Below, piece by piece: positions 2,201 through 58,045 of a DNA stretch of 64,000 nucleotides. The stretch's first letter is position 1, and every line of letters starts with the position of its first letter. The stretch lies in contig DASPHZ010000002.1 of assembly GCA_035629395.1 (NCBI GenBank), forward strand, positions 69,423 through 133,422. Direction: 5' to 3'. This DNA comes from Thermoanaerobaculia bacterium (lineage in GTDB: Bacteria; Acidobacteriota; Thermoanaerobaculia; Gp7-AA8). Made by a program: the position numbers and the translations under genes. Under the pieces are notes generated by a model. That model worked only from the letters and a program-made list of their open reading frames with translations, was not told where the DNA came from and ran no database searches.

Positions 2201-3337
2201 ATGACCGTCACCACCCCCCAGGCCCCCACCCTCCGTGAAGTCGCCGAGTCCGGCGGGAATCCGCTCCGGCTGAAGCGTGTGCATCATGTCGAGTTCTGGG
2301 TGGGGAACGCGAAGCAGGCGGCGTTTTACTACCGGAAGGCGTTCGGGTTTTCGCAGGTGGCGTATTCGGGGCTGGAGACGGGGAATCGGGAGTTTGCCTC
2401 GTACGTGCTCGGGCAGGGGAAGGTGCGGTTCGTCCTCTCGACGCCGTTCGATCCGAACCATCCGGCGAGCGAGCACATCCGGAAGCATGGGGATGGCGTT
2501 CGCGACATCGCGCTGCTGGTCGAGGACGCCGATTACGCGTACGCGGAAGCGGTGAAGCGGGGCGCGACGGGAATCGTCGAGCCGCATGATGTTGCGGGAG
2601 ACCACGGCACGATCCGCCGCGCGGCCATCCAGACCTACGGCGACACCATCCACTCCTTCATCAGCTACGCGAACTACGACGGCGCGTTCCTGCCGGGCTA
2701 CGTCGCCGCGCCCATCGAAGGGGAGCCCGTCGGCATCGCCGCGGTCGATCACATGGTCGGCAACGTCGAGCTCGGAAAGATGAACGAGTGGTGCGAGTTC
2801 TACAGCAAGGTGATGGGCTTCTCGCGCTACATCACCTTCGACGACAAGGACATCAACACCGAGTACTCGGCCCTCATGTCGATCGTCATGAGCGACGACA
2901 ACCGGGTCGTGAAGTTCCCGATCAACGAGCCGGCCGCGGGCAAGAGGAAATCGCAGATCCAGGAGTATCTGGAGGCGTACTACGGCCCCGGCGTGCAGCA
3001 CGTGGCGCTCCTCTGCGGCGACGTCATCAGCACGGTGACGAATCTCAAGAACAACGGCGTCGAGTTCCTCTCCGTGCCGGACAGCTACTACGCCGAGCTC
3101 CCGTCGCGCGTCGGCACGATCGACGAGCCGATGGAAGCGCTGCAGAAGCTCGGCATCCTCGTCGACCGCGACGAAGAGGGCTACCTCCTCCAGATCTTCA
3201 CCAAACCCGTGCAGGACCGCCCCACCGTCTTCTTCGAGATCCTCCAGCGCAAGGGCGCCCGCGGATTCGGAAAAGGGAACTTCAAGGCGCTGTTCGAGTC
3301 GATCGAGAGGGAGCAGGCGAGGAGGGGGAACCTGTAG
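2201..3337 (+). CDS. hppD: 4-hydroxyphenylpyruvate dioxygenase
   Basis: 378 aa. Tandem VOC domains. Conserved [16 protein letters not shown] and C-terminal FFEIIQRKG...[15 protein letters not shown] motifs. AAGGAG ribosome-binding site upstream. Confidence 0.92.
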
Positions 3338-3447
3338 CAGCGTTGCTGGCTGCTCGTTGGTGGTTGCTCGTGACGTGTCGCCCCGGCGATGGACTCCCGA
3401 GCACCAGCAACCAGCAACCAGCAAGCAGCAACCAGCAACCAGCCACA
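3338..3447. repeat. Inverted array of phased heptamer repeats (unit CAGCAAC / GTTGCTG), family B copy 1; exactly fills the hppD stop to hmgA start gap
   Basis: Left arm gttgctg-gctgctc-gttggtg-gttgctc. Unique core gacgtgtcgccccggcgatggactcc. Right arm cagcaac x5-6 running directly into the hmgA ATG. Confidence 0.8.
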
Positions 3448-4700
3448 TGTACCAATCCGGCTTCAACAACGAATTCGCCACCGAGGCCATCGCGGGCGTG
3501 CTTCCGGAGCGGGGCAACTCGCCGCAACGCGTGAAGTTCGGGTTGTACGCGGAGCAGTTCTCCGGCTCGCCGTTCACGGTGCCGCGTCCGATGCAGAAGC
3601 GCGCGTGGTTGTATCGGATCCGGCCGAGCGTGCTGCATGAGCCGTTCACGGCCGCGGACGCACGCCATCTGCGCGGGGCATTCGACGAAGTGCCGGTGCC
3701 GCCGAATCAACTGCGCTGGGATCCGCTGCCGATTCCCAGCGAGCCCACGGACTTCATCGAAGGCCTGACCACGATTGCCGGCAACGCCGGAGTGGGCATC
3801 CACCTCTACGCGTGCAATCGCCCGATGGAAGGGCGCTTTTTCTACGATGCCGACGGCGAGCTGCTGATCGTCCCCGAACAGGGCGCACTGAAGATCCTCA
3901 CGGAGCTCGGCATCCTCGACGTCAAACCGGGCGAGATCGCCGTGATCCCGCGCGGCACGAAGTTCCGCGTCGAAAACGAAAAAGCCCGCGGCTACATCTG
4001 CGAGAACTACGGCGCGAACTTCCGTCTCCCCGACCTCGGGCCGATCGGCTCGAACGGTCTCGCCAATCCGCGCGACTTTCTGACTCCCGCCGCCGCGTAC
4101 GAAGACGTCGAAGGCGACTTCGAGCTGCTCGCGAAATTCGACGGGCATCTCTGGTCCGCACGCATCGACCATTCGCCGCTCGACGTCGTGGCGTGGCACG
4201 GCAACTACGCGCCGTACAAATACGACCTGGCCAAGTTCAACGTCATCAACACGGTCTCGTTCGACCATCCCGATCCGTCGATCTTCACCGTCCTCACCTC
4301 GCCATCCGACACGCCCGGCACCGCGAACTGCGACTTCGTCATCTTCCCGCCGCGCTGGATGGTCGCCGAAGACACCTTCAGGCCACCTTATTTTCATCGC
4401 AATATCATGAATGAATATATGGGACTGATTTATGGTGTCTACGACGCGAAGGCGGAAGGCTTCGCGCCGGGCGGCGGGAGCCTGCACAACTGCATGTCCG
4501 GCCACGGTCCCGACGCCGCCACGTTCGACGCCGCGAGCAACGCGAAGCTCGAGCCGAAGTTCATCGGCGACACGCTCGCCTTCATGTTCGAGACGCGCCA
4601 CCTCATCCGTCCCACCCGCTTCGCCCTCGAGTCGCCGCTCCTGCAGCGCGACTACTGGCGCTGCTGGCAGGGCCTCCGCAAAAACTTCGAGCCTGCATGA
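3447..4700 (+). CDS. hmgA: homogentisate 1,2-dioxygenase
   Basis: N-terminal [14 protein letters not shown]...[22 protein letters not shown] is the typical HGD start. ~417 aa cupin protein. The listed ORF start at 3357 is a spurious extension through the repeat. Confidence 0.9.
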
Positions 4701-5431
4701 TCGCGAAGTCGCTGCGCGCGCTGCTCGAGGGGCTCGTCGACTACGCGGGCCTCTTTCCGCCCGCGGCGCTCTCGATGCAGGACGCCGTCCGCAACTACGC
4801 CCGCTACCGCGAAGGCGAGTACTCCTGGATGCTCGGGAAGTTCGTCGTCCCGCGGGAGCGCGCGGACGAGGTGCCGGGTGAGTATCCGACGAGCATCCTC
4901 GGCATCGACGAAGTGAAGGCGGCGAGCGAAGCGGAGCTGAGCGCATTCGCCGAAGGGACGTTCGTCGAGATCGCGAATCTCGACCTGCTGGACGCCATCG
5001 AGAGAAACCACCTCCGCGCGAAGATCCGCACCGGCGGCATCACCGCGGACGCGTTCCCCCCCATCGAAAACATCGCCGCCTTCCTCCGCGCGTGCAAGGA
5101 GAAAGGCATCGCCTTCAAGGCCACGGCGGGCCTCCATCATCCGCTGCGCTGCGTCAAGCCGCTCACGTACGACGCGGACGCGCCGACCGGCACGATGCAC
5201 GGGTTCCTCAACGTCTTCATGGCCGCGGCGATCGTCGATCGCGCCGAAGAAGTCCTGCGCGAAGACGATCCGCGTGCGTTCGCATTCGACGACGAAGTCG
5301 CGTCGTGGCGCGAAGTCCAGGTCAGCGTGAAATCGATCGCCGAGATGCGTGAGACTTTCGCGATTTCCTTCGGCAGTTGTTCGTTCGAGGAACCCATCAG
5401 CGACTTGCGCGCGCTCGGCCTTCTCCCCTGA
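4697..5431 (+). CDS. conserved hypothetical protein (244 aa) embedded in the tyrosine-catabolic cluster; function unknown
   Basis: ATGA stop/start overlap with hmgA, implying translational coupling. High GC3. No domain recognised by eye. Contains [12 protein letters not shown]. Confidence 0.6.
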
Positions 5432-5522
5432 CTCCGACTCGTAACAAATTCTGACGAGCTTGTGACGAACTCCCCACGCCGTGCGCCGTAGGATCTCTGC
5501 AGTTCAACAGAGAGGATCAGCA

Positions 5523-8197
<2,675 letters not shown>

Positions 8198-8201
<4 letters not shown>

Positions 8202-8608: not shown

Positions 8609-9790
8609 ATGACCGACTTTCCGATCGAAAACCTTCCCTTCGGCGTTTTCCGCGCGGCTGACGGCAACGCGCATGGATGCACGGCGTTCGAGGACCGCAT
8701 CCTCGACCTGCATGCATGCGCGCGCGCGGGCCTCATCGACGAGCCGGCGCTGCTCGCGCCGCTGCTCAACGAGTTGATGGCGAAGGGACGCGCCGCGTCG
8801 CGGGCCGTGCGTGCTCGCGTGCGCGAGCTCATCGAATCCGGCGCCGCGGACGCGCACTTTGTCCCAATGCAGGGAGCGGAGATGCTCCTGCCGATGCGCA
8901 TCGGCGACTACACCGATTTCTACGCGAGCATCCATCACGCGACGAACGTCGGCTCGATGTTCCGTCCCGACAATCCGCTGCTGCCGAATTACAAGTGGTT
9001 GCCGATCGGCTATCACGGGCGCGCGTCGTCGATCGTCGTCAGCGGCACGCCCGTGCGCCGTCCCGCGGGACAGACGAAGGACGATGCGAGTGCCTCGCCG
9101 AGCTTCGGTCCCTCCAAGAGGCTCGATTACGAAATGGAAATGGGCATCGTCATCGGCGCGGGCAATGCCCTCGGCGAACCGATTGCGGTCGGCGACGCGC
9201 TGGGGCACGTGTTCGGATTCTGTCTCGTCAACGACTGGTCCGCCCGCGACGTGCAGACGTGGGAGTACCAGCCGCTCGGGCCGTTCCTGGCGAAGAATTT
9301 CGCCACGTCGATCTCGCCGTGGATCGTGACGATGGACGCGCTGGAGCCGTTCCGCACGAAGGCATTCGTGCGTGCGGAAGGAGATCCGCCGCCGCTTCCT
9401 TACTTACAGGACGACGTCGGCTTCGACGTCAACGTGGAAGTGTGGCTGCGCACCGCGAAGATGACCGAGCCCGTGCGTCTCAGCCGCGGCAACTTCCGCG
9501 ACATGTACTGGACAGTCGCGCAGCTCGTGGCGCATCACACGTCGAACGGCTGCAACCTCGTGCCCGGCGACCTGCTCGCGAGCGGCACGATCTCGGGTGA
9601 AGCGAAGGACGCGCGCGGCTCGCTGCTCGAGCGGGCGTGGCGCGGCACCGAGCCGGTCGAATTGCCGGGCGGGGAAACGCGCAAGTTTCTCGAAGACGGT
9701 GACGAAGTGGTGTTGCGCGCGTACTGCGAGCGCGACGGCCTGCGCATCGGCTTCGGCGAATGCCGCGGCGTCGTGCTGCCGTCATCCTGA
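8609..9790 (+). CDS. fahA: fumarylacetoacetate hydrolase
   Basis: 393 aa. N-terminal FPIENLPFGVF and a FAH-fold C-terminal domain (GYHGRASS, DYEMEMG, VNDWSARD). Confidence 0.9.
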   Translation: MTDFPIENLPFGVFRAADGNAHGCTAFEDRILDLHACARAGLIDEPALLAPLLNELMAKGRAASRAVRARVRELIESGAADAHFVPMQGAEMLLPMRIGDYTDFYASIHHATNVGSMFRPDNPLLPNYKWLPIGYHGRASSIVVSGTPVRRPAGQTKDDASASPSFGPSKRLDYEMEMGIVIGAGNALGEPIAVGDALGHVFGFCLVNDWSARDVQTWEYQPLGPFLAKNFATSISPWIVTMDALEPFRTKAFVRAEGDPPPLPYLQDDVGFDVNVEVWLRTAKMTEPVRLSRGNFRDMYWTVAQLVAHHTSNGCNLVPGDLLASGTISGEAKDARGSLLERAWRGTEPVELPGGETRKFLEDGDEVVLRAYCERDGLRIGFGECRGVVLPSS

Positions 9791-10155: not shown

Positions 10156-11472
10156 ATGAACATTCGCAGCATTGGTGCGCTCGCCGCCCTTCTGGTGGGC
10201 GTGCCCGCATTCGCCGGCACGCTCCACGTTCGCCTCACCAACTACATCAACCACCTCGGTGAACCGAACTCGCAGACGTTCACGCTCGCCACGCAGCCGT
10301 TCACCGGCTCGACGAATTGCTCGAGCGGCGGCGGCGCGACGACGCTCACGCACGGCGTCGACTCCGTCACCGGCACCACGGTCAACGTGACCCCCGGCAA
10401 TTCCGTGCTGCTCACGGTCGATCCCGGCTCGCCGCAGGCGATGTCGGATCAGAACGGCTACTTCGTCTCGTACGGCAGCGATCCCGCGGACATGCACACG
10501 TTCGACACGGCGACGTTCCTGCCGGGCGACGGACGCGCGATCTGCTTCGGCGGCTTCGAAGGGGCGCACGATCTGTACGCGCGCTTCTACGCGGGCATCC
10601 AGTTGCTCGACGAATGCGGCAACGAGCGCACGAACTGGGCGCCGGGCGAGACGGTGAACATCAAAGTCTCGGGTGGTCTCATCTTCAACCCCGAGCCGAT
10701 GCGCCTGATGGCCGCGGGCGGCAGCGTGAACGAATGCACGTTCCTGCCGGAAGCGCCGTTGTACGCGACGGTGCACGTCACGTCCGATCCGTTCGTCTAT
10801 CCATTCACGCTGCCCGATTCCGATGCCGACATCCCGAATCCCGGCTGTACGGGCAGCGGCACGCAGCACATCACCGGCAACTGGCGCGTGGTCGTGTACG
10901 ACTCGTCGTGCGGCTGCAATCGCAATCAGTTCAACTTCACGGTCGCCAACGACGCGCCGCCCGCGCCGCCGTGCACGCTCGATTGTCCGGGCGACATCAC
11001 GGTCGACAACGATCCGGGTGCGTGCGGTGCAAACGTGACGTTCGCCGCGCCCGCGGGTGCGACGTGCGACGCATTGCCGGGCGCGTTCTTCCCGGTCGGA
11101 ACGACGACCGTGACGTGCACCTCCGGCGCGCTGTCGTGTGATTTCGACGTGACGGTGAATGACGCCGAGCCGCCGAGTGTCGGCGCGGTGAGCGCGTCAC
11201 CGAATGTGTTGTGGCCGCCGAATCATCAGATGGTGGACGTGACGCTCAACTACAGCGGCTCGGACAATTGCGGCGCGGTGGCGTGTTCGATCGTGTCGAT
11301 TGCGTCGAACGAGCCGGGGCCGGAGGATTGGGAGATCGTCGATGCGCATCACGTGCGGTTACGCGCGGAGCGTCTCGGCACCGGCAAAGGTCGCGTATAC
11401 ACGATCACCGTCGATTGCGGCGGCGCCACGAACGTCGTGACGGTCAGCGTGCCGAAGAGTCAGAAGCACTGA
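10156..11472 (+). CDS. secreted HYR-domain protein with a C-terminal Ig-like domain
   Basis: Signal peptide MNIRSIGALAALLVGVPAFA. Cys-rich. HYR-like segment CPGDITVDNDPGACGANVTF...VTCTS. C-terminal LWPPNHQMVDV...NEPGPEDWEIVDAHHVRLRAERLGTGKGRVYTI module. Confidence 0.7.
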   Translation: MNIRSIGALAALLVGVPAFAGTLHVRLTNYINHLGEPNSQTFTLATQPFTGSTNCSSGGGATTLTHGVDSVTGTTVNVTPGNSVLLTVDPGSPQAMSDQNGYFVSYGSDPADMHTFDTATFLPGDGRAICFGGFEGAHDLYARFYAGIQLLDECGNERTNWAPGETVNIKVSGGLIFNPEPMRLMAAGGSVNECTFLPEAPLYATVHVTSDPFVYPFTLPDSDADIPNPGCTGSGTQHITGNWRVVVYDSSCGCNRNQFNFTVANDAPPAPPCTLDCPGDITVDNDPGACGANVTFAAPAGATCDALPGAFFPVGTTTVTCTSGALSCDFDVTVNDAEPPSVGAVSASPNVLWPPNHQMVDVTLNYSGSDNCGAVACSIVSIASNEPGPEDWEIVDAHHVRLRAERLGTGKGRVYTITVDCGGATNVVTVSVPKSQKH

Positions 11473-15442: not shown

Positions 15443-16311
15443 ACGAGTTCGAGGCGTATCGCGCGCTGCTGTTTTCGATCGCATACCGGATGACCGGCAG
15501 CGCGGCCGATGCGGAGGATCTCGTGCAGGACGCGTACGTGCGATACGCGTCCACCGACACCGAGGTCGTGCGGGACGTGAAGGCGTTCCTCGTCACCGTC
15601 CTCACGCGCCTCGCGCTCGACCGGTTGAAGTCCGCGCAGAAGCAGCGCGAGGAGTACATCGGTCCGTGGCTGCCGGAGCCCGTCTTCACCGGCATCGACG
15701 GCGATCCCTACGCGCGCGCCACACGCGACGAGAAGGTGGAGATGGCGCTGCTGCGCGCACTGGAACGACTATCGCCGACCGAACGCGCGGTGCTGCTGTT
15801 GTACGAGGTGCTCGAGCATGACCACAACGAGATCGCGGAACTGCTCGAGATCACACCCGCGGCATCGCGGCAGACCCTGCATCGGGCGAAGGAGCGCGTG
15901 GCGGCGGAGAAGCGCCGCTTCACGCCTCCCGTCGAAGAACAGCGCCGCTTGATCGAAGGATTCATCGGTGCGGTGGCGAAAGGCGACGTCGACGGGTTGC
16001 GCAGCATGCTCGCCGCGGACGTCGTGTCGATTGCCGACGGCGGCGCGAAGTCGTTCGCGGCCAAGCGGCCGATTCACGGCGCGGATGCGGTGGCGAAGAT
16101 GTGGGTCGGCATCGCCCAGAAGTTCGGCACCGGGTTCTCCGTCTCGATCGAAGAAGTCAACGGCGCGCTCGCGCTCGTCGGACGCCGCGATGGTGCCATC
16201 GGCAGCATTCTGTCGTTCGCGTTCGAGGGCGACCGCATCGCGGAGCTGGTGAGCTTCGTCAATCCCGACAAGCTGGCGTTCGCGCAGCGGCAGACTACTG
16301 CGCCGCGTTGA
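15439..16311 (+). CDS. RNA polymerase ECF sigma factor, SigJ type (sigma2/sigma4 plus a C-terminal SnoaL-like domain)
   Basis: Starts VNEFEAYRALLFSIAYRMTGSAADAEDLVQDAYVRY. GTG start overlaps the upstream stop (GTGA) and is preceded by AGGAGG. Confidence 0.8.
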   Translation: MNEFEAYRALLFSIAYRMTGSAADAEDLVQDAYVRYASTDTEVVRDVKAFLVTVLTRLALDRLKSAQKQREEYIGPWLPEPVFTGIDGDPYARATRDEKVEMALLRALERLSPTERAVLLLYEVLEHDHNEIAELLEITPAASRQTLHRAKERVAAEKRRFTPPVEEQRRLIEGFIGAVAKGDVDGLRSMLAADVVSIADGGAKSFAAKRPIHGADAVAKMWVGIAQKFGTGFSVSIEEVNGALALVGRRDGAIGSILSFAFEGDRIAELVSFVNPDKLAFAQRQTTAPR

Positions 16312-17020
16312 GGCGCTGCAGAAAAGCCTGGATGCCGCCGAGGTCCGCATCCGCCTCGGCCGCAACGCCCGCCGTCGCTTCGCGCACGAGATTGGCGAAG
16401 ATCTCCTCGCGCGTCATCACCGTCTCGTTCCACCAGAGCGGATGGATGAGGAGCTGGCTGCGCGGATGGGTACGGAAGAACGCGTCGACGTCGGGGGCGC
16501 CGAAGCGCATGCGGCTGTCGCTGAGGTACGCGATGTCTTCGAAGAACGCGGCGCTGTACGCGTCGCGATATTCGGCGAGCCGCGGCCGGATCTTGCTCGT
16601 CGACGGTTTGTGTTGCGCGATGGAGGTGAACGGCGCGCCGACGTACAGCTCGAGGAGCTGGATCGACACGCGCACGCGCTCCTGCATCTGCGCTTCCGAC
16701 AGCCCTTCGAAATACGAGCAGTCGTAGTGCAGGCCGAGCTCGTGCCCCATGGCCGCCATCTCCTGCAGCGCGCGGATGTTCTCCGGCGTCAGCGGGTTGT
16801 AGTACGGCGCGGTGAGGAGGACGAAGAACGTCGCGCGCGTACCGCCCTCGACGTCGAGCTTCGCCATCTCCAGCGCCTTCTGCACCGAGAAGTCGATGTC
16901 GTGGCGCAGGATCACCGCCGGGCCGGATTCGGGGAAATCGCGGAGCGGACCGACTTTGTAGCCGAGGTCCTGAATGCTGCGGAGCAGGCGGAGATACCCG
17001 GCGTGTGTGAAGTCGGTCAT
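16295..17020 (-). CDS. polysaccharide deacetylase family protein
   Basis: HDIDF motif and NodB-like histidine pattern. 241 aa. Confidence 0.7.
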   Translation of the reverse strand: MTDFTHAGYLRLLRSIQDLGYKVGPLRDFPESGPAVILRHDIDFSVQKALEMAKLDVEGGTRATFFVLLTAPYYNPLTPENIRALQEMAAMGHELGLHYDCSYFEGLSEAQMQERVRVSIQLLELYVGAPFTSIAQHKPSTSKIRPRLAEYRDAYSAAFFEDIAYLSDSRMRFGAPDVDAFFRTHPRSQLLIHPLWWNETVMTREEIFANLVREATAGVAAEADADLGGIQAFLQRLNAAQ

Positions 17021-27890: not shown

Positions 27891-28688
27891 TCAAAAGAGC
27901 TGCTGCATCGCGCAGCCGACCATCACGGCGAGGCAGGCGCCCGCCGCACATTCCGGCCACGCCGGACCGGTGAAACGGCAGGCCAGTGCTCCCGACCAGC
28001 AGCCGGTTGCGGTGCACTCGGCCCAGCTCTGCAACCGCCGCCGCAGGGACTGCACGAGCAGAATGTCAGCGTTGGTCGCCGCCGCCACGTCAATGCCGCC
28101 GAGGGACGCGACGCGCACGCCGTCGCGCTGCAGCATCACATAAGGATCGCTCGCACCCGGCGACGTCCGCGGCCCTTTGTAGTAGATCTCCGACTCCCAG
28201 TTCACCGCCAGCGTCGAGCTGTCGGTCTGGAACTGCCCATCGAGCAGCAACTCGCCACCGTTCGCGTAGTTGTGAATGTAGATCTGGCCTTCCCACGTGG
28301 CGTTGTCGCCGTCATCCCACGACCAGAAGATGATCTCCGTGTCGCCGTCGCTGAACGTCTGCGCCGGCTGCACCGGTCCTTCAGCGCGCGCGGCGATTCT
28401 CCGCGCGACGACGATGTCCGTCGGCGTCCAGCCGCGGCTTTGGAGCACCGAGGCCGCTTTACGGAACGCCTCGGGCCGCTGCGCTTTGAGCTCCTGAAGG
28501 CGCGCTTGCGCGGCCTTGGCGTCGAGCGGACTGACGGCGAACGAGCCTTTCGCCGTGGAAACGTATTCGACCGCGGACTGCTCGTGCGGGTGCGGGTGCG
28601 TCCCCGCAGGGACGGAGGCCTGGGTGGTCAGAGTTCCGAAGAGCGTCGCGACCGTGAGAACCGCGTTTCGTACTGCTGTTACTTTCAT
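27891..28688 (-). CDS. secreted hypothetical protein with a Cys-rich C-terminus
   Basis: Signal peptide MKVTAVRNAVLTVATLFGTLTTQA. Six Cys in the last 40 aa. Confidence 0.55.
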   Translation of the reverse strand: MKVTAVRNAVLTVATLFGTLTTQASVPAGTHPHPHEQSAVEYVSTAKGSFAVSPLDAKAAQARLQELKAQRPEAFRKAASVLQSRGWTPTDIVVARRIAARAEGPVQPAQTFSDGDTEIIFWSWDDGDNATWEGQIYIHNYANGGELLLDGQFQTDSSTLAVNWESEIYYKGPRTSPGASDPYVMLQRDGVRVASLGGIDVAAATNADILLVQSLRRRLQSWAECTATGCWSGALACRFTGPAWPECAAGACLAVMVGCAMQQLF

Positions 28689-53540: not shown

Positions 53541-53625
53541 TGTTGCTGGGGGCTGGTTGCTCGTTGCTTGCGATCCTCGCGAGACCTCACGAGCCACCAG
53601 CAACTAGCAACCAGGAACCTTAGCC
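53541..53625. repeat. Inverted phased-heptamer array (GTTGCTG ... CAGCAAC), family B copy 2; exactly fills the MFP stop to RND start gap
   Basis: Reads gttgctg-ggggctg-gttgctc-gttgctt | gcgatcctcgcgagacctcac | gagccac-cagcaac-tagcaac-cagg. Architecture matches the 3338-3447 element. Confidence 0.8.
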
Positions 53626-56911: not shown

Positions 56912-56945
56912 AAAAGGCCGGTGCTTGCACCGGCCTTTTTCGTTT
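56912..56945 (+). terminator. rho-independent terminator of efflux operon 2
   Basis: GGCCGGTG-cttg-CACCGGCC followed by TTTTTCGTTTT. Confidence 0.8.
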
Positions 56946-57001
56946 TCACGCGGGAGGTCTCACGCTCGATCGGCGATCTGCGAAGCCTATACTTTGAAGG
57001 G

Positions 57002-58045
57002 ATGGGCTCGTTTTTCGCGAACGTGCAGGTCCTCGCGCCGCGCGACCTCGTGCGCGAGCGGCTGATCGCGCATGCGCGCGCCGGCGTTTACGAGCCGGCG
57101 CACGATGAATCGGATCGCGGCTGCGCGATGGCGACCTCCGGAGAGGGCTGGACGGTCGTGTACGACCAAGACATGGACGGACACGACCTGAAGTCGATCG
57201 AGGAGCTCGCGGCCACACTGTCGTTCGCGCCTGCACAGCTCGCGGTGAGCATCCTCGTCAGCGACAGCGACGAACTGGTGCTGTCGCTCTTCGAGGAAGG
57301 GAAGCGTCTCAACCGCCTTCGCGTCGTTCCCGGCAAGGCGGTGAAGATCGGCCCGAAGTGGCGCGCGGCGTTTCCGAAGCTGCCGGCGATTCTCCCGCCG
57401 CCGGAAGCGTTCGCCGAGGAGGTACTGACGCCCATCGCGGATGCAATGGGCGTCAGCGTCGATTCCCTGTCCGGCTCGTACGAGCACCGCGACGAGTTGC
57501 AGACGCCGCTCGAGGAGCTCCGCTTCGTGCTCAAGCCGGAGTACCGATTCATCCGCTGGGCCGAGGGTCCGCCGCAGTTCTGGACGCCGCAGGGCTCACG
57601 GCGCGACACCGCGGCCATCGGGCGCGATCTCTTTCTCAGCGCCACACTCCACAATAGAGGCGGCCCGTGCCGCGGCCTTTCCGTCATCCTCCTGCCTGGC
57701 GAGTGGCTGGAGCTCGTCGACGTGCAGCGCGTGCATCTCAGCATCGGCGCAAACTGCACGACCTTCGAGGCGGAGCCGCAGCTCGTCGAGAAGAACGGCG
57801 GGCGCGCTTTCGTGGTGACGTTCGAAGAAGCGACGCTCGACGCCTGGCCGGAGGAAGCCGTTGCGGAGACGCCGTGGCAATTCCGCAAGGCGCAGCACGC
57901 GTACGACCAGACGCGCATCTGGAGCTCGATCGTCGTGACGCCGAGGAGAGCAGGCAGTGCGACGCTCCGCGCCTTCTTCGTGCCGCGCGAGCATCCCCGC
58001 GGCGGCATGATCATCGACTACCAGCTCACGGTGACGGATGCGTGA
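57002..58045 (+). CDS. hypothetical protein (347 aa), no recognisable domain
   Basis: High GC3. Start placed after the terminator with a GAAGGG ribosome-binding site. The ORF-track start at 56921 lies inside the terminator stem. Confidence 0.55.
   Translation: MGSFFANVQVLAPRDLVRERLIAHARAGVYEPAHDESDRGCAMATSGEGWTVVYDQDMDGHDLKSIEELAATLSFAPAQLAVSILVSDSDELVLSLFEEGKRLNRLRVVPGKAVKIGPKWRAAFPKLPAILPPPEAFAEEVLTPIADAMGVSVDSLSGSYEHRDELQTPLEELRFVLKPEYRFIRWAEGPPQFWTPQGSRRDTAAIGRDLFLSATLHNRGGPCRGLSVILLPGEWLELVDVQRVHLSIGANCTTFEAEPQLVEKNGGRAFVVTFEEATLDAWPEEAVAETPWQFRKAQHAYDQTRIWSSIVVTPRRAGSATLRAFFVPREHPRGGMIIDYQLTVTDA

What the first reader, a model, noticed from the sequence alone, without database searches (positions are those of the whole stretch)
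4697..5431. Unassigned 244-aa ORF translationally coupled to hmgA in a tyrosine-catabolism cluster that lacks a recognisable maleylacetoacetate isomerase
The cluster encodes HPPD, HGD and FAH but no GST-zeta-type maleylacetoacetate isomerase. In the position where the isomerase is often found there is instead a conserved-looking protein of unknown fold ([12 protein letters not shown] and several Cys), joined to hmgA by an ATGA overlap. It is a candidate non-orthologous replacement for the isomerase step. Non-GST isomerases are known for the analogous gentisate pathway in Gram-positives. Alternatively it carries out an accessory step.
Basis: inference. Interest (0 to 1): 0.6.

Follow-up and report, generated by a model that had tools for sequence, protein, structure and literature searches.

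The report
Candidate glutathione-free maleylacetoacetate isomerase family
The 244-aa gene fused by an ATGA overlap to homogentisate dioxygenase belongs to a very large, completely unannotated TIM-barrel protein family that sits next to (and is occasionally fused to) fumarylacetoacetase in at least eight bacterial phyla, making it the best candidate yet for the 'missing' isomerase of tyrosine breakdown in bacteria that lack the usual glutathione-dependent enzyme.

Summary
ORF 4697-5431 (+) encodes 244 aa, and its ATG overlaps the hmgA TGA. HPPD, HGD and FAH are confirmed. No GST-zeta gene lies in the 64-kb window.

The protein matches nothing in Pfam, NCBIfam or PDB sequences. It nevertheless has more than 5,000 homologue clusters (at 50% identity), and every homologue that carries a product name is called 'hypothetical protein', apart from one JGI 'nitroreductase' label.

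AlphaFold models are confident (pLDDT 97). They show a (β/α)8 TIM barrel with no close solved relative.

- **Forward synteny:** FAH lies downstream on the same strand in 84 of 91 loci that carry the gene.
- **Reverse synteny:** the gene lies next to FAH in 49 of 55 loci that were fetched with FAH as the query.
- **Fusions:** two in-frame fusions to FAH exist.
- **Same slot as maiA:** in Pseudoalteromonas the genuine maiA overlaps the end of hmgA in exactly this position. No MaiA homologue occurs in any locus that carries the gene.
- **Taxa:** the linkage holds in Acidobacteriota, Planctomycetota, Gemmatimonadota, Bacillota, Actinomycetota, Cyanobacteriota and others.
- **Conserved residues:** Cys, two Lys, two His, Arg, Glu and Asp at strand ends are 99-100% conserved.

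My best reading (confidence about 0.65) is a thiol-cofactor-independent maleylacetoacetate cis-trans isomerase. No activity has been tested.

The parts
2201..3337 (+). hppD, 4-hydroxyphenylpyruvate dioxygenase (378 aa)
   Evidence: TIGR01263 equivalog, E=4e-135, above the curated cut-off. Pfam Glyoxalase and HPPD_N domains.
3338..3446 (+). Intergenic imperfect long hairpin built from CAGCAAC heptamer repeats, between hppD and hmgA
   Evidence: 10 pattern matches against 0.03 expected. A second copy lies at 53545-53615. RNA fold is -51.3 kcal/mol, z = -3.1. Function unknown.
3447..4700 (+). hmgA, homogentisate 1,2-dioxygenase (417 aa from the ATG at 3447; the mechanical ORF starts at 3357)
   Evidence: TIGR01015 equivalog, E=2e-200. 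Pfam HgmA_N and HgmA_C. The N-terminus [10 protein letters not shown] aligns from profile position 1.
4697..4700 (+). ATGA start/stop overlap between hmgA and the ORF (translational coupling)
   Evidence: Read directly from the sequence. Close homologues start at the same position (MIA[KR]SLRALL).
4697..5431 (+). ORF-X, 244 aa. It is a compact member of an unannotated TIM-barrel family and the candidate thiol-cofactor-independent maleylacetoacetate isomerase.
   Evidence: No Pfam, NCBIfam or PDB sequence hit. At least 8000 homologues, and 5018 representatives of 50% clusters. AF2 pLDDT 96.8. Synteny and fusions.
4739..4762 (+). Motif D15-Y-A-G-L-F-P-P22, at the end of barrel strand 1
   Evidence: D15, A17, P21 and P22 are 100% conserved in 280 diverse sequences. 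Strand E14-16 in the model.
5021..5038 (+). Motif K109-I-R111-T-G-G114
   Evidence: K109, R111 and G114 are 100% conserved. Strand E107-111.
5117..5140 (+). Motif K141-A-T-A-G-L-H147-H148
   Evidence: K141, T143, A144 and H147 are 100% conserved and H148 is 99% conserved. Strand E140-143.
5372..5395 (+). Motif G226-S-C228-S-F-E-E232-P233. C228 (codon 5378-5380) is the proposed catalytic nucleophile.
   Evidence: C228 is conserved in 278 of 280 sequences, and in 17 of 17 sequences from distant phyla down to 26% identity. It lies directly after the last barrel strand, E222-227.
5481..8201 (+). Ser/Thr protein kinase with PD40 beta-propeller repeats (906 aa). This gene lies between ORF-X and fahA and is not part of the pathway.
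   Evidence: Pfam Pkinase 8e-52 and PD40 4e-53. It occupies the same position in L007, L010 and L013, lies after fahA in L002, L006 and L020, and is absent from most loci.
8609..9790 (+). fahA, fumarylacetoacetase (393 aa)
   Evidence: TIGR01266 equivalog, E=4e-162. Pfam FAA_hydrolase_N and FAA_hydrolase.

Best explanation
ORF-X is the enzyme for the middle step of the homogentisate pathway. It would convert the HGD product, 4-maleylacetoacetate (cis), into 4-fumarylacetoacetate (trans), the substrate of FAH. It would do this without glutathione and without any relationship to the GST-zeta isomerase MaiA.

**Shown:**
- It is a real, strongly conserved, translationally coupled gene.
- It is a TIM barrel.
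- Its invariant residues (D15, E72, E91, K109, R111, K141, H147, H148, C228) sit at or just after the C-terminal ends of the barrel strands, which is where TIM-barrel active sites lie.
- It is linked to FAH and HGD across phyla and is sometimes fused to FAH.

**Inferred mechanism:**
1. The two carboxylates of the substrate are held by the conserved Arg and Lys residues (R111, R151, R218, K109/K141).
2. The C4 carbonyl is polarised by Lys/His. This could be through a Lys iminium, as in class I aldolase barrels, or through a metal held by the Glu, Asp and His residues.
3. The invariant Cys228 thiolate adds to C2 of the enone, playing the role that the glutathione thiolate plays in MaiA.
4. The C2-C3 bond rotates.
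5. The thiolate leaves, giving the trans isomer, which passes to FAH.
For: 1. **Forward synteny.** FAH lies downstream on the same strand in 84 of 91 ORF-X loci. In 62 of them the gap is 150 bp or less, and in 9 the genes overlap. Four of the 7 exceptions are cut off by a contig end. HGD lies upstream in 59 of 91.
2. **Reverse synteny.** In 80 metagenome loci fetched with FAH as the only query, 49 of the 55 with enough flanking sequence carry ORF-X next to FAH. In 20 of the 25 truncated loci a partial ORF-X is visible.
3. **Annotated records from other phyla show the same order.**
   - Priestia: hppD, X, fahA, hisC, HGD.
   - Rhodococcus, Pseudonocardia and Tsukamurella: HGD, X, fahA with overlapping genes.
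   - Streptomyces: X, fahA.
   - Nonomuraea and Kovacikia.
4. **Rosetta-stone fusions.** P0384 (771 aa) is ORF-X, a Pro/Glu-rich linker and a full FAH. P0232 is a second fusion, 49% identical to P0384.
5. **An operon with one gap and one unassigned gene.** L096 encodes X, FAH, acetoacetyl-CoA synthetase, MarR, HPPD and HGD. Every step is present except the isomerase, and X is the only unassigned gene.
6. **Same slot as genuine maiA.** In Pseudoalteromonas hmgA ends at 6281 and maiA starts at 6281.
7. **Complementary distribution.** No MaiA homologue occurs in 1.96 Mb of loci, apart from the proteobacterial control. All 23 ORF-X plasmid records come from outside the Proteobacteria, so none of the proteobacterial FAH-bearing records has it. 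Outside the Proteobacteria, 24 of the 26 FAH-bearing records that were identified do have it.
8. **Active-site-like conservation.** This includes a single Cys conserved in 278 of 280 sequences, on a confident TIM-barrel model.
9. **The gap is acknowledged in print.** No isomerase gene can be identified in B. anthracis (PMC4457819).
10. **Established knowledge (not tested here).** Bacillota and Actinomycetota lack glutathione. Canonical FAH does not cleave the cis isomer, which is the basis of the classical coupled assay for the isomerase.
Against: - No biochemical or genetic test exists. The assignment rests on guilt by association.
- Genome-wide absence of maiA could not be checked for this organism or for any ORF-X genome.
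- ORF-X is not universal where HGD and FAH are clustered. Nocardia farcinica has HGD and FAH adjacent without it. Chondrinema (Bacteroidota) has neither ORF-X nor maiA nearby. Six of 55 FAH-anchored loci lack it.
- Three ORF-X loci with ample flanking sequence have no FAH nearby: L001, L046 and L050.
- Two Streptomyces plasmids carry an MDMPI_N-type gene ('maleylpyruvate isomerase N-terminal domain') about 4 kb away. That gene could be the isomerase in those organisms.
- The nearest fold matches are aldolase-type barrels, not isomerases, and they are weak (best E=5.6e-4, TM 0.55 or less).
Confidence: 0.65

Rival explanations
1. ORF-X is an accessory partner of fumarylacetoacetase rather than the isomerase. 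It could be a scaffold or channelling subunit, a keto-enol tautomerase that prepares the diketo-acid, or a chaperone. In that case isomerisation would be spontaneous, thiol-catalysed, or done by another protein.
For: The tightest linkage is to FAH, not to HGD: 84 of 91 against 59 of 91. The fusions are to FAH. ORF-X and FAH occur as a pair without a nearby HGD in Phycisphaerae and Streptomyces. From established knowledge, non-enzymatic glutathione-driven isomerisation keeps GSTZ1-deficient mammals alive.
Against: About 20 residues of catalytic type (Cys, Lys, His, Glu, Asp, Arg) at the barrel strand ends are 99-100% conserved. That pattern is typical of an enzyme active site, not a scaffold. 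No tautomerase step is known or required between HGD and FAH. Linkage to FAH is also exactly what is expected of the enzyme that makes FAH's substrate.
Confidence: 0.12
2. ORF-X belongs to the alternative Bacillus-type route. There, maleylacetoacetate is hydrolysed directly to maleate plus acetoacetate. ORF-X would be either that hydrolase or lyase, or the enzyme that disposes of maleate as an isomerase or hydratase.
For: PMC4457819 cites an older report of a maleylacetoacetate hydrolase in Bacillus and says no gene is known for it. The family is present in Priestia megaterium. The nearest fold matches are Schiff-base aldolase barrels that make or break C-C bonds, such as DERA (3ng3, TM to target 0.55). 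The K-on-strand-6 and K-on-strand-7 arrangement resembles DERA; the DERA residue positions are recalled from memory.
Against: Every ORF-X locus examined pairs it with a canonical TIGR01266-type fumarylacetoacetase. That enzyme would be redundant if the cis compound were cleaved directly. No maleate-handling genes recur in the neighbourhoods.
Confidence: 0.08
3. ORF-X is the isomerase, but it uses a diffusible low-molecular-weight thiol (bacillithiol, mycothiol, cysteine or glutathione) as cofactor. This would parallel the MDMPI and BagL enzymes of the gentisate pathway. Cys228 would then be structural or would bind the thiol.
For: From established knowledge, every characterised maleyl-compound isomerase of aromatic catabolism uses a thiol cofactor. 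The family spans phyla that use different thiols.
Against: One conserved active site across organisms that use glutathione, bacillithiol and mycothiol argues against recognition of any particular thiol. The single near-invariant Cys (278 of 280) is the simplest source of the nucleophile. The cofactor-free maleate isomerase works this way (established knowledge).
Confidence: 0.1

Closest known systems
Maleylacetoacetate isomerase MaiA/HmgC/GSTZ1 (GST zeta class, EC 5.2.1.2)
   Same: It catalyses the reaction proposed here and belongs to the same pathway. It also occupies the same operon slot. In Pseudoalteromonas pTHAF3_a, maiA starts at the last base of hmgA, as ORF-X does here.
   Different: There is no sequence or fold relationship. 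MaiA is a thioredoxin-like GST that needs glutathione, whereas ORF-X is a TIM barrel with no GST_N or GST_C signal and no tblastn similarity. The two are also distributed in a complementary way.
Thiol-dependent maleylpyruvate isomerases of Gram-positive bacteria (mycothiol-dependent MDMPI of Corynebacterium, and L-cysteine-dependent BagL; DinB-like fold)
   Same: They show the same evolutionary logic: a lineage-specific, non-GST replacement for a cis-trans isomerase of a maleyl intermediate in bacteria without glutathione.
   Different: They belong to a different pathway (gentisate), have a different fold (a DinB four-helix bundle with metal) and need a diffusible thiol. ORF-X shows no MDMPI_N or DinB signal. 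MDMPI_N genes were found only in two related Streptomyces plasmids, about 4 kb away from ORF-X.
Maleate cis-trans isomerase (Asp/Glu racemase superfamily)
   Same: It is a mechanistic analogue: a cofactor-free isomerase of a cis-enedioate that uses an enzyme cysteine as the Michael nucleophile (established knowledge). This is the chemistry proposed for Cys228.
   Different: It has an unrelated fold, acts on a different substrate (maleate), and uses two catalytic cysteines rather than one invariant cysteine.
TIM-barrel class I aldolases (DERA, DHDPS/NAL, transaldolase, ThiG)
   Same: They are the best structural matches: DERA 3ng3 (E=7.6e-4, probability 1.00, TM to target 0.55, rmsd 4.6 Å), plus ThiG, DHDPS and transaldolase. 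Invariant lysines lie on consecutive late barrel strands, as in DERA (the DERA residue positions are recalled from memory).
   Different: Sequence identity is 10-16%. No profile hit to any PDB sequence was found. No aldolase Pfam family matched. The invariant Cys and the His-His pair are not aldolase features. The genomic context is not that of an aldolase.

Membership tests
GST-zeta maleylacetoacetate isomerase (MaiA/GSTZ1) | GST_N (thioredoxin-like) plus GST_C domains | tested here: not met
   No Pfam or NCBIfam family at E<=1 for the protein. No GST family appeared among the reported matches (28 families, the 25 shown) for the 150 family members scanned at E<=10. The model is a β/α barrel.
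GST-zeta maleylacetoacetate isomerase (MaiA/GSTZ1) | Sequence similarity to a genuine MaiA, or the N-terminal SSCxWRVRIAL-type motif | tested here: not met
   tblastn with Pseudoalteromonas MaiA (L083:6281-6907) found only itself in 1.96 Mb, including the window. Regex matches to the motif fall only in non-coding frames.
GST-zeta maleylacetoacetate isomerase (MaiA/GSTZ1) | Catalyses maleylacetoacetate to fumarylacetoacetate with glutathione | not testable with these tools
   This needs an enzyme assay.
MDMPI / DinB-type thiol-dependent maleylpyruvate isomerases | MDMPI_N / DinB_2 domain (four-helix bundle with a metal site) | tested here: not met
   No such Pfam hit was found for the protein or for the family members. 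tblastn with two Streptomyces MDMPI_N proteins hit only those two loci, not ORF-X.
Maleate isomerase / Asp-Glu racemase superfamily | Asp/Glu racemase-type two-domain fold with paired catalytic cysteines | tested here: not met
   No Pfam hit. All Foldseek hits are TIM barrels. Only one cysteine is family-invariant.
TIM (β/α)8 barrel fold | Eight alternating β-α units that form a closed barrel, with structural similarity to known TIM barrels | tested here: met
   In the 296-aa member (pLDDT 97.2), DSSP shows regularly alternating strands and helices. The top 50 Foldseek PDB hits are almost all TIM barrels, with probabilities up to 1.00. The 244-aa window protein is shorter by about one β/α unit.
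Class I (Schiff-base) aldolase superfamily | Detectable homology to an aldolase family, and a Schiff-base lysine in the equivalent strand | tested here: inconclusive
   DERA is the best natural structural hit, but only at E=7.6e-4 and 14% identity. Sequence profiles find nothing. Invariant K109 and K141 lie on adjacent late strands, but structural equivalence could not be checked without coordinates.
Homogentisate-pathway operon component | Conserved adjacency to hmgA and fahA across unrelated lineages | tested here: met
   FAH downstream in 84 of 91 loci and HGD upstream in 59 of 91. ORF-X adjacent in 49 of 55 FAH-anchored loci. Annotated plasmid loci in Bacillota, Actinomycetota and Cyanobacteriota agree. 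Fusions to FAH exist.

The most novel reading that the evidence does not exclude
This would be a new enzyme family: a TIM-barrel cis-trans isomerase that needs no cofactor and uses its own invariant cysteine, possibly with Lys-iminium or metal activation of the enone. It would be the long-sought maleylacetoacetate isomerase of bacteria that lack glutathione or do not use it here. It would be spread over at least eight phyla and more than 5,000 sequence clusters, yet absent from Pfam, NCBIfam and the PDB.
Probability: 0.5. Interest if true: 0.8.

Novelty: new variant of a known kind. Interest (0 to 1): 0.75.

Why it matters
The homogentisate pathway for tyrosine and phenylalanine breakdown is textbook metabolism. 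Its isomerase step, however, has no known gene in Gram-positive bacteria and many other bacteria. A paper on B. anthracis says so explicitly (PMC4457819).

If this family is that enzyme, several things follow:
- It closes a decades-old gap.
- It corrects pathway reconstructions for a large share of soil bacteria, including Acidobacteriota, Actinomycetota, Bacillota, Planctomycetota and Gemmatimonadota.
- It gives thousands of 'hypothetical proteins' a name.
- It adds a new catalytic solution for cis-trans isomerisation on the TIM-barrel scaffold.

It is also directly testable with simple coupled assays and with existing maiA/hmgC mutants.

Tried and rejected
- **Sequence annotation gave nothing.** I tried Pfam and NCBIfam on the protein, Pfam on 8 distant members and on all 150 members of alignment A2 at E<=10, and PDB sequences with the single protein and with a profile. 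One Amidohydro_2 hit (E=0.013) appeared in 1 of 150 members, and I rejected it as noise.
- **Model coordinates are not exposed.** I therefore could not measure 3-D clustering of the conserved residues.
- **Gene calling needed repair.** My first longest-ORF caller lost ORF-X in 33 high-GC loci. A GC3-weighted version still missed 22. The final counts use an HMM on six-frame translations plus tblastn.
- **Literature searches found no description of the family.** I ran seven searches; one search was badly designed and uninformative. The supplement of the Rhodococcus P450 paper lists only HmgA and HmgB, so it adds nothing.
- **Ideas considered and dropped:**
  - A PLP-binding alanine-racemase-like site. 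K-A-T-A-G-L-H-H resembles K-A-N-A-Y-G-H-G, which I recalled from memory. However, it lies on a late barrel strand rather than strand 1, the substrate has no amine, and the ODC-type hits had TM of only about 0.33.
  - An enolase-superfamily barrel. ORF-X has no capping domain and the pattern of metal ligands is wrong.
Full report
**1. The observation**

The ORF at 4697-5431 (+) is real. It encodes 244 aa. Its ATG overlaps the TGA of the upstream gene within ATGA at 4697-4700. Its codon-position GC profile (GC3 0.87, GC2 0.44) matches coding sequence in this 66.7% GC window.

- HPPD at 2201-3337 (TIGR01263, 4e-135).
- HGD at about 3447-4700 (TIGR01015, 2e-200).
- FAH at 8609-9790 (TIGR01266, 4e-162).

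One detail was underplayed. A 906-aa Ser/Thr kinase/PD40 gene (5481-8201) separates the ORF from FAH in this window.

No GST-zeta gene and no DinB/MDMPI-type gene lies in the window. Pfam scans of the 20 small and medium genes found none. tblastn with a genuine MaiA found nothing. Matches to the GST-zeta motif fall only in non-coding frames.

**2. What the protein is**

It matches nothing in Pfam, NCBIfam or PDB sequences, either as a single sequence or as a 150-member profile. It is nevertheless far from an orphan.
- The word-indexed search saturated at 8000 hits.
- The exhaustive search of 50%-identity representatives found 5018 clusters at E<=1e-3 and 1609 at E<=1e-30.
- Every hit that carries a product name is 'hypothetical protein', apart from one JGI 'nitroreductase' label.

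The closest relatives are Thermoanaerobaculia (Acidobacteriota) MAGs. Most members are about 295-300 aa. The window protein is a compact form that lacks roughly 50 residues in the middle.

AlphaFold2 models are very confident for both forms: pLDDT 96.8 and pTM 0.92 for the window protein, and pLDDT 97.2 and pTM 0.93 for a 296-aa member. Both show alternating β-α units.

**3. Conservation**

I examined 280 diverse sequences, including members from seven phyla down to 26% identity.
- 100% conserved: D15, A17, P21, P22, E91, K109, R111, G114, P121, K141, T143, A144, H147, G169, G226.
- 99% conserved: H148, N172, S229 and C228 (278 of 280).
- 97-98% conserved: E72, R218, E232.

In the models these residues sit on, or directly after, barrel strands. 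D15 is in strand 14-16, E91 in 89-91, K109 and R111 in 107-111, and K141 and T143 in 140-143. H147 and H148 come just after that last strand, and C228 comes just after strand 222-227. This is the usual catalytic face of a TIM barrel. Of the three cysteines, only C228 is family-invariant.

**4. Genomic context: the decisive evidence**

*Forward test.* I analysed 91 loci that carry the gene. They comprise the window, 80 GTDB-species loci, 8 plasmid/chromid loci and 2 metagenome-assembled loci.
- FAH lies downstream on the same strand in 84. In 62 of these the gap is 150 bp or less, and in 9 the genes overlap.
- Four of the 7 exceptions are cut off by a contig end.
- HGD lies upstream on the same strand in 59.

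*Reverse test.* I fetched 80 metagenome loci using only the window's FAH as the query. Of the 55 with at least 900 bp upstream of FAH, 48 have the gene directly upstream (typical gap 26-88 bp). One more has it convergent, immediately downstream. Twenty of the 25 truncated loci show a partial copy.

*Annotated records outside the Acidobacteriota show the same order.*
- Priestia megaterium: hppD, X, fahA (4-bp overlap), hisC, HGD.
- Rhodococcus rhodochrous, Pseudonocardia and Tsukamurella tyrosinosolvens: HGD, X, fahA with overlaps.
- Streptomyces: X, fahA.
- Nonomuraea and the cyanobacterium Kovacikia.

*Plasmid collection.* Every FAH-bearing record from Streptomyces (11 of 11), Priestia (6 of 6), Pseudonocardia (2 of 2), Rhodococcus (2 of 2), Nonomuraea, Tsukamurella and Kovacikia has the gene. 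All 23 ORF-X records come from outside the Proteobacteria, so none of the proteobacterial FAH-bearing records (most of the 252) has it.

*Other recurrent neighbours* are phenylalanine hydroxylase, an aminotransferase and an Lrp regulator, all part of aromatic amino-acid catabolism. I assigned these by reading the representative sequences; they were not scanned against a family library.

*One especially clear operon.* L096 encodes X, FAH, acetoacetyl-CoA synthetase, MarR, HPPD and HGD. Every step is present except the isomerase, and X is the only unassigned gene.

*Fusions.* Two natural in-frame fusions join the domain to FAH through a Pro/Glu-rich linker. P0384 is 771 aa with a full FAH. P0232 is 49% identical to it.

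**5. The maiA slot**

In Pseudoalteromonas pTHAF3_a the annotated maiA starts at the last base of hmgA. This is the same arrangement as ORF-X here. No MaiA homologue occurs in any of the ORF-X or FAH-anchored loci (1.96 Mb in total), apart from that control. MDMPI_N-type genes occur only in two related Streptomyces plasmids, about 4 kb away.

**6. Interpretation**

Only one reaction lies between HGD and FAH: the cis-trans isomerisation of maleylacetoacetate. The gene behaves as that step's gene should.
- It sits between the two flanking enzymes.
- It is coupled or fused to the downstream enzyme.
- It replaces maiA in the same slot.
- It is found in lineages that either lack glutathione (Bacillota and Actinomycetota, from established knowledge) or show no nearby maiA.

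A published analysis states that no isomerase gene can be found in B. anthracis and that the fate of maleylacetoacetate there is unclear (PMC4457819).

Chemically, isomerising an enone of this kind needs a nucleophile that adds to C2 and then leaves. Glutathione does this in MaiA, and an enzyme cysteine does it in the cofactor-free maleate isomerase (established knowledge). The single invariant cysteine on the catalytic face is therefore the natural candidate. The conserved Arg and Lys residues fit a dicarboxylate substrate. The Lys, His, Glu and Asp set could polarise the C4 carbonyl, either as an iminium (the nearest folds are Schiff-base aldolase barrels) or through a metal. These mechanistic steps are inference. 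Only the anatomy and the associations are shown.

**7. Caveats and rivals**

Nothing has been assayed, and genome-wide absence of maiA could not be tested.

Exceptions exist:
- Nocardia farcinica has HGD and FAH adjacent without the gene.
- Chondrinema has neither the gene nor maiA nearby.
- Six of 55 FAH-anchored loci lack it. In one (L144) a 252-aa ORF, which I read by eye as transposase-like, lies immediately downstream of FAH where L168 carries ORF-X.
- Three loci with the gene have no FAH nearby, and their neighbours are uninformative.

Rival readings:
- An FAH accessory subunit or tautomerase (0.12).
- A role in the reported Bacillus maleylacetoacetate-hydrolase/maleate route (0.08).
- An isomerase that still needs a diffusible thiol (0.10).

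**8. Novelty and verdict**

Seven literature searches found no description of the family. It is absent from Pfam (2025) and NCBIfam (June 2026), and RefSeq annotates it as hypothetical.

The pathway and the reaction are known. Lineage-specific non-GST isomerases have a precedent in the gentisate pathway. I therefore rate this as a new variant of a known kind. The likely enzyme family and its catalytic solution are nevertheless new.

- Confidence that it is the maleylacetoacetate isomerase: about 0.65.
- Confidence in the Cys228-nucleophile mechanism specifically: about 0.4.
- Interest: 0.75. A large and ubiquitous unannotated family is tied to a long-standing gap, and the gap becomes directly testable.

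Noticed in passing
window 3338-3446 and 53545-53615: Two intergenic elements are built from CAGCAAC heptamer repeats arranged as long imperfect inverted repeats. There are 10 pattern matches against 0.03 expected. The copy between hppD and hmgA folds at -51 kcal/mol (z = -3.1). This may be a REP-like element or an attenuator/terminator inside the operon.
   Followed up: partly
window 5481-8201; L007, L010, L013 compared with L002, L006, L020: A 906-aa Ser/Thr kinase with PD40 propeller repeats lies between ORF-X and fahA in this window and in three related Thermoanaerobaculia loci. In other relatives it lies after fahA. It is a lineage-specific companion of the tyrosine cluster, and its role is unknown.
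   Followed up: partly
L094 8001-10316 (P0384); P0232; P0255: Natural fusion proteins exist. P0384 (771 aa) and P0232 (512 aa) join ORF-X to FAH through an acidic Pro/Ala/Glu linker. P0255 (545 aa) joins an Rce1-like CAAX protease domain to ORF-X. The P0384 fusion gene stands next to a type III polyketide synthase-like gene, not next to HGD.
   Followed up: partly
L021, L030, L033, L081, L082, L086, L087, L090, L091, L096: ORF-X pairs with two very different HGD types. One is the canonical protein of about 420-440 aa, as in the window. The other is a shorter cupin-type form of about 385-400 aa that is only 24-29% identical. Both sit upstream of ORF-X, so the linkage does not depend on the HGD lineage.
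   Followed up: partly
window 4697-5431 compared with typical family members (A1, A3): The window protein (244 aa) and its Thermoanaerobaculia relatives lack about 50 residues that form roughly one β/α unit in the typical 295-300-aa members. They are still predicted with pLDDT of about 97. This would be a naturally minimised barrel.
   Followed up: partly
L096 8001-15128: A MAG labelled Deltaproteobacteria carries a compact operon: ORF-X, FAH, acetoacetyl-CoA synthetase, MarR, HPPD and a short HGD. It couples acetoacetate activation directly to the pathway.
   Followed up: no
L092 (Nocardia farcinica NZ_LN868939.1) 2784-5167: A short-type HGD is followed directly by FAH, with no ORF-X between them or within 4 kb. 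This counter-example shows that some Actinomycetota solve the step differently or encode the gene elsewhere.
   Followed up: partly
L088 1985-2641; L089 869-1525: Two related Streptomyces plasmids carry a gene annotated 'maleylpyruvate isomerase N-terminal domain-containing protein' about 4 kb from the ORF-X/fahA pair. It is a possible alternative isomerase in those organisms.
   Followed up: partly
window 10156-11472, 16295-17020, 27891-28688, 56921-58045: Four further window ORFs (438, 241, 265 and 374 aa) have coding-like GC3 but no Pfam match at E<=0.001. The 438-aa and 265-aa products start with signal-peptide-like sequences.
   Followed up: no
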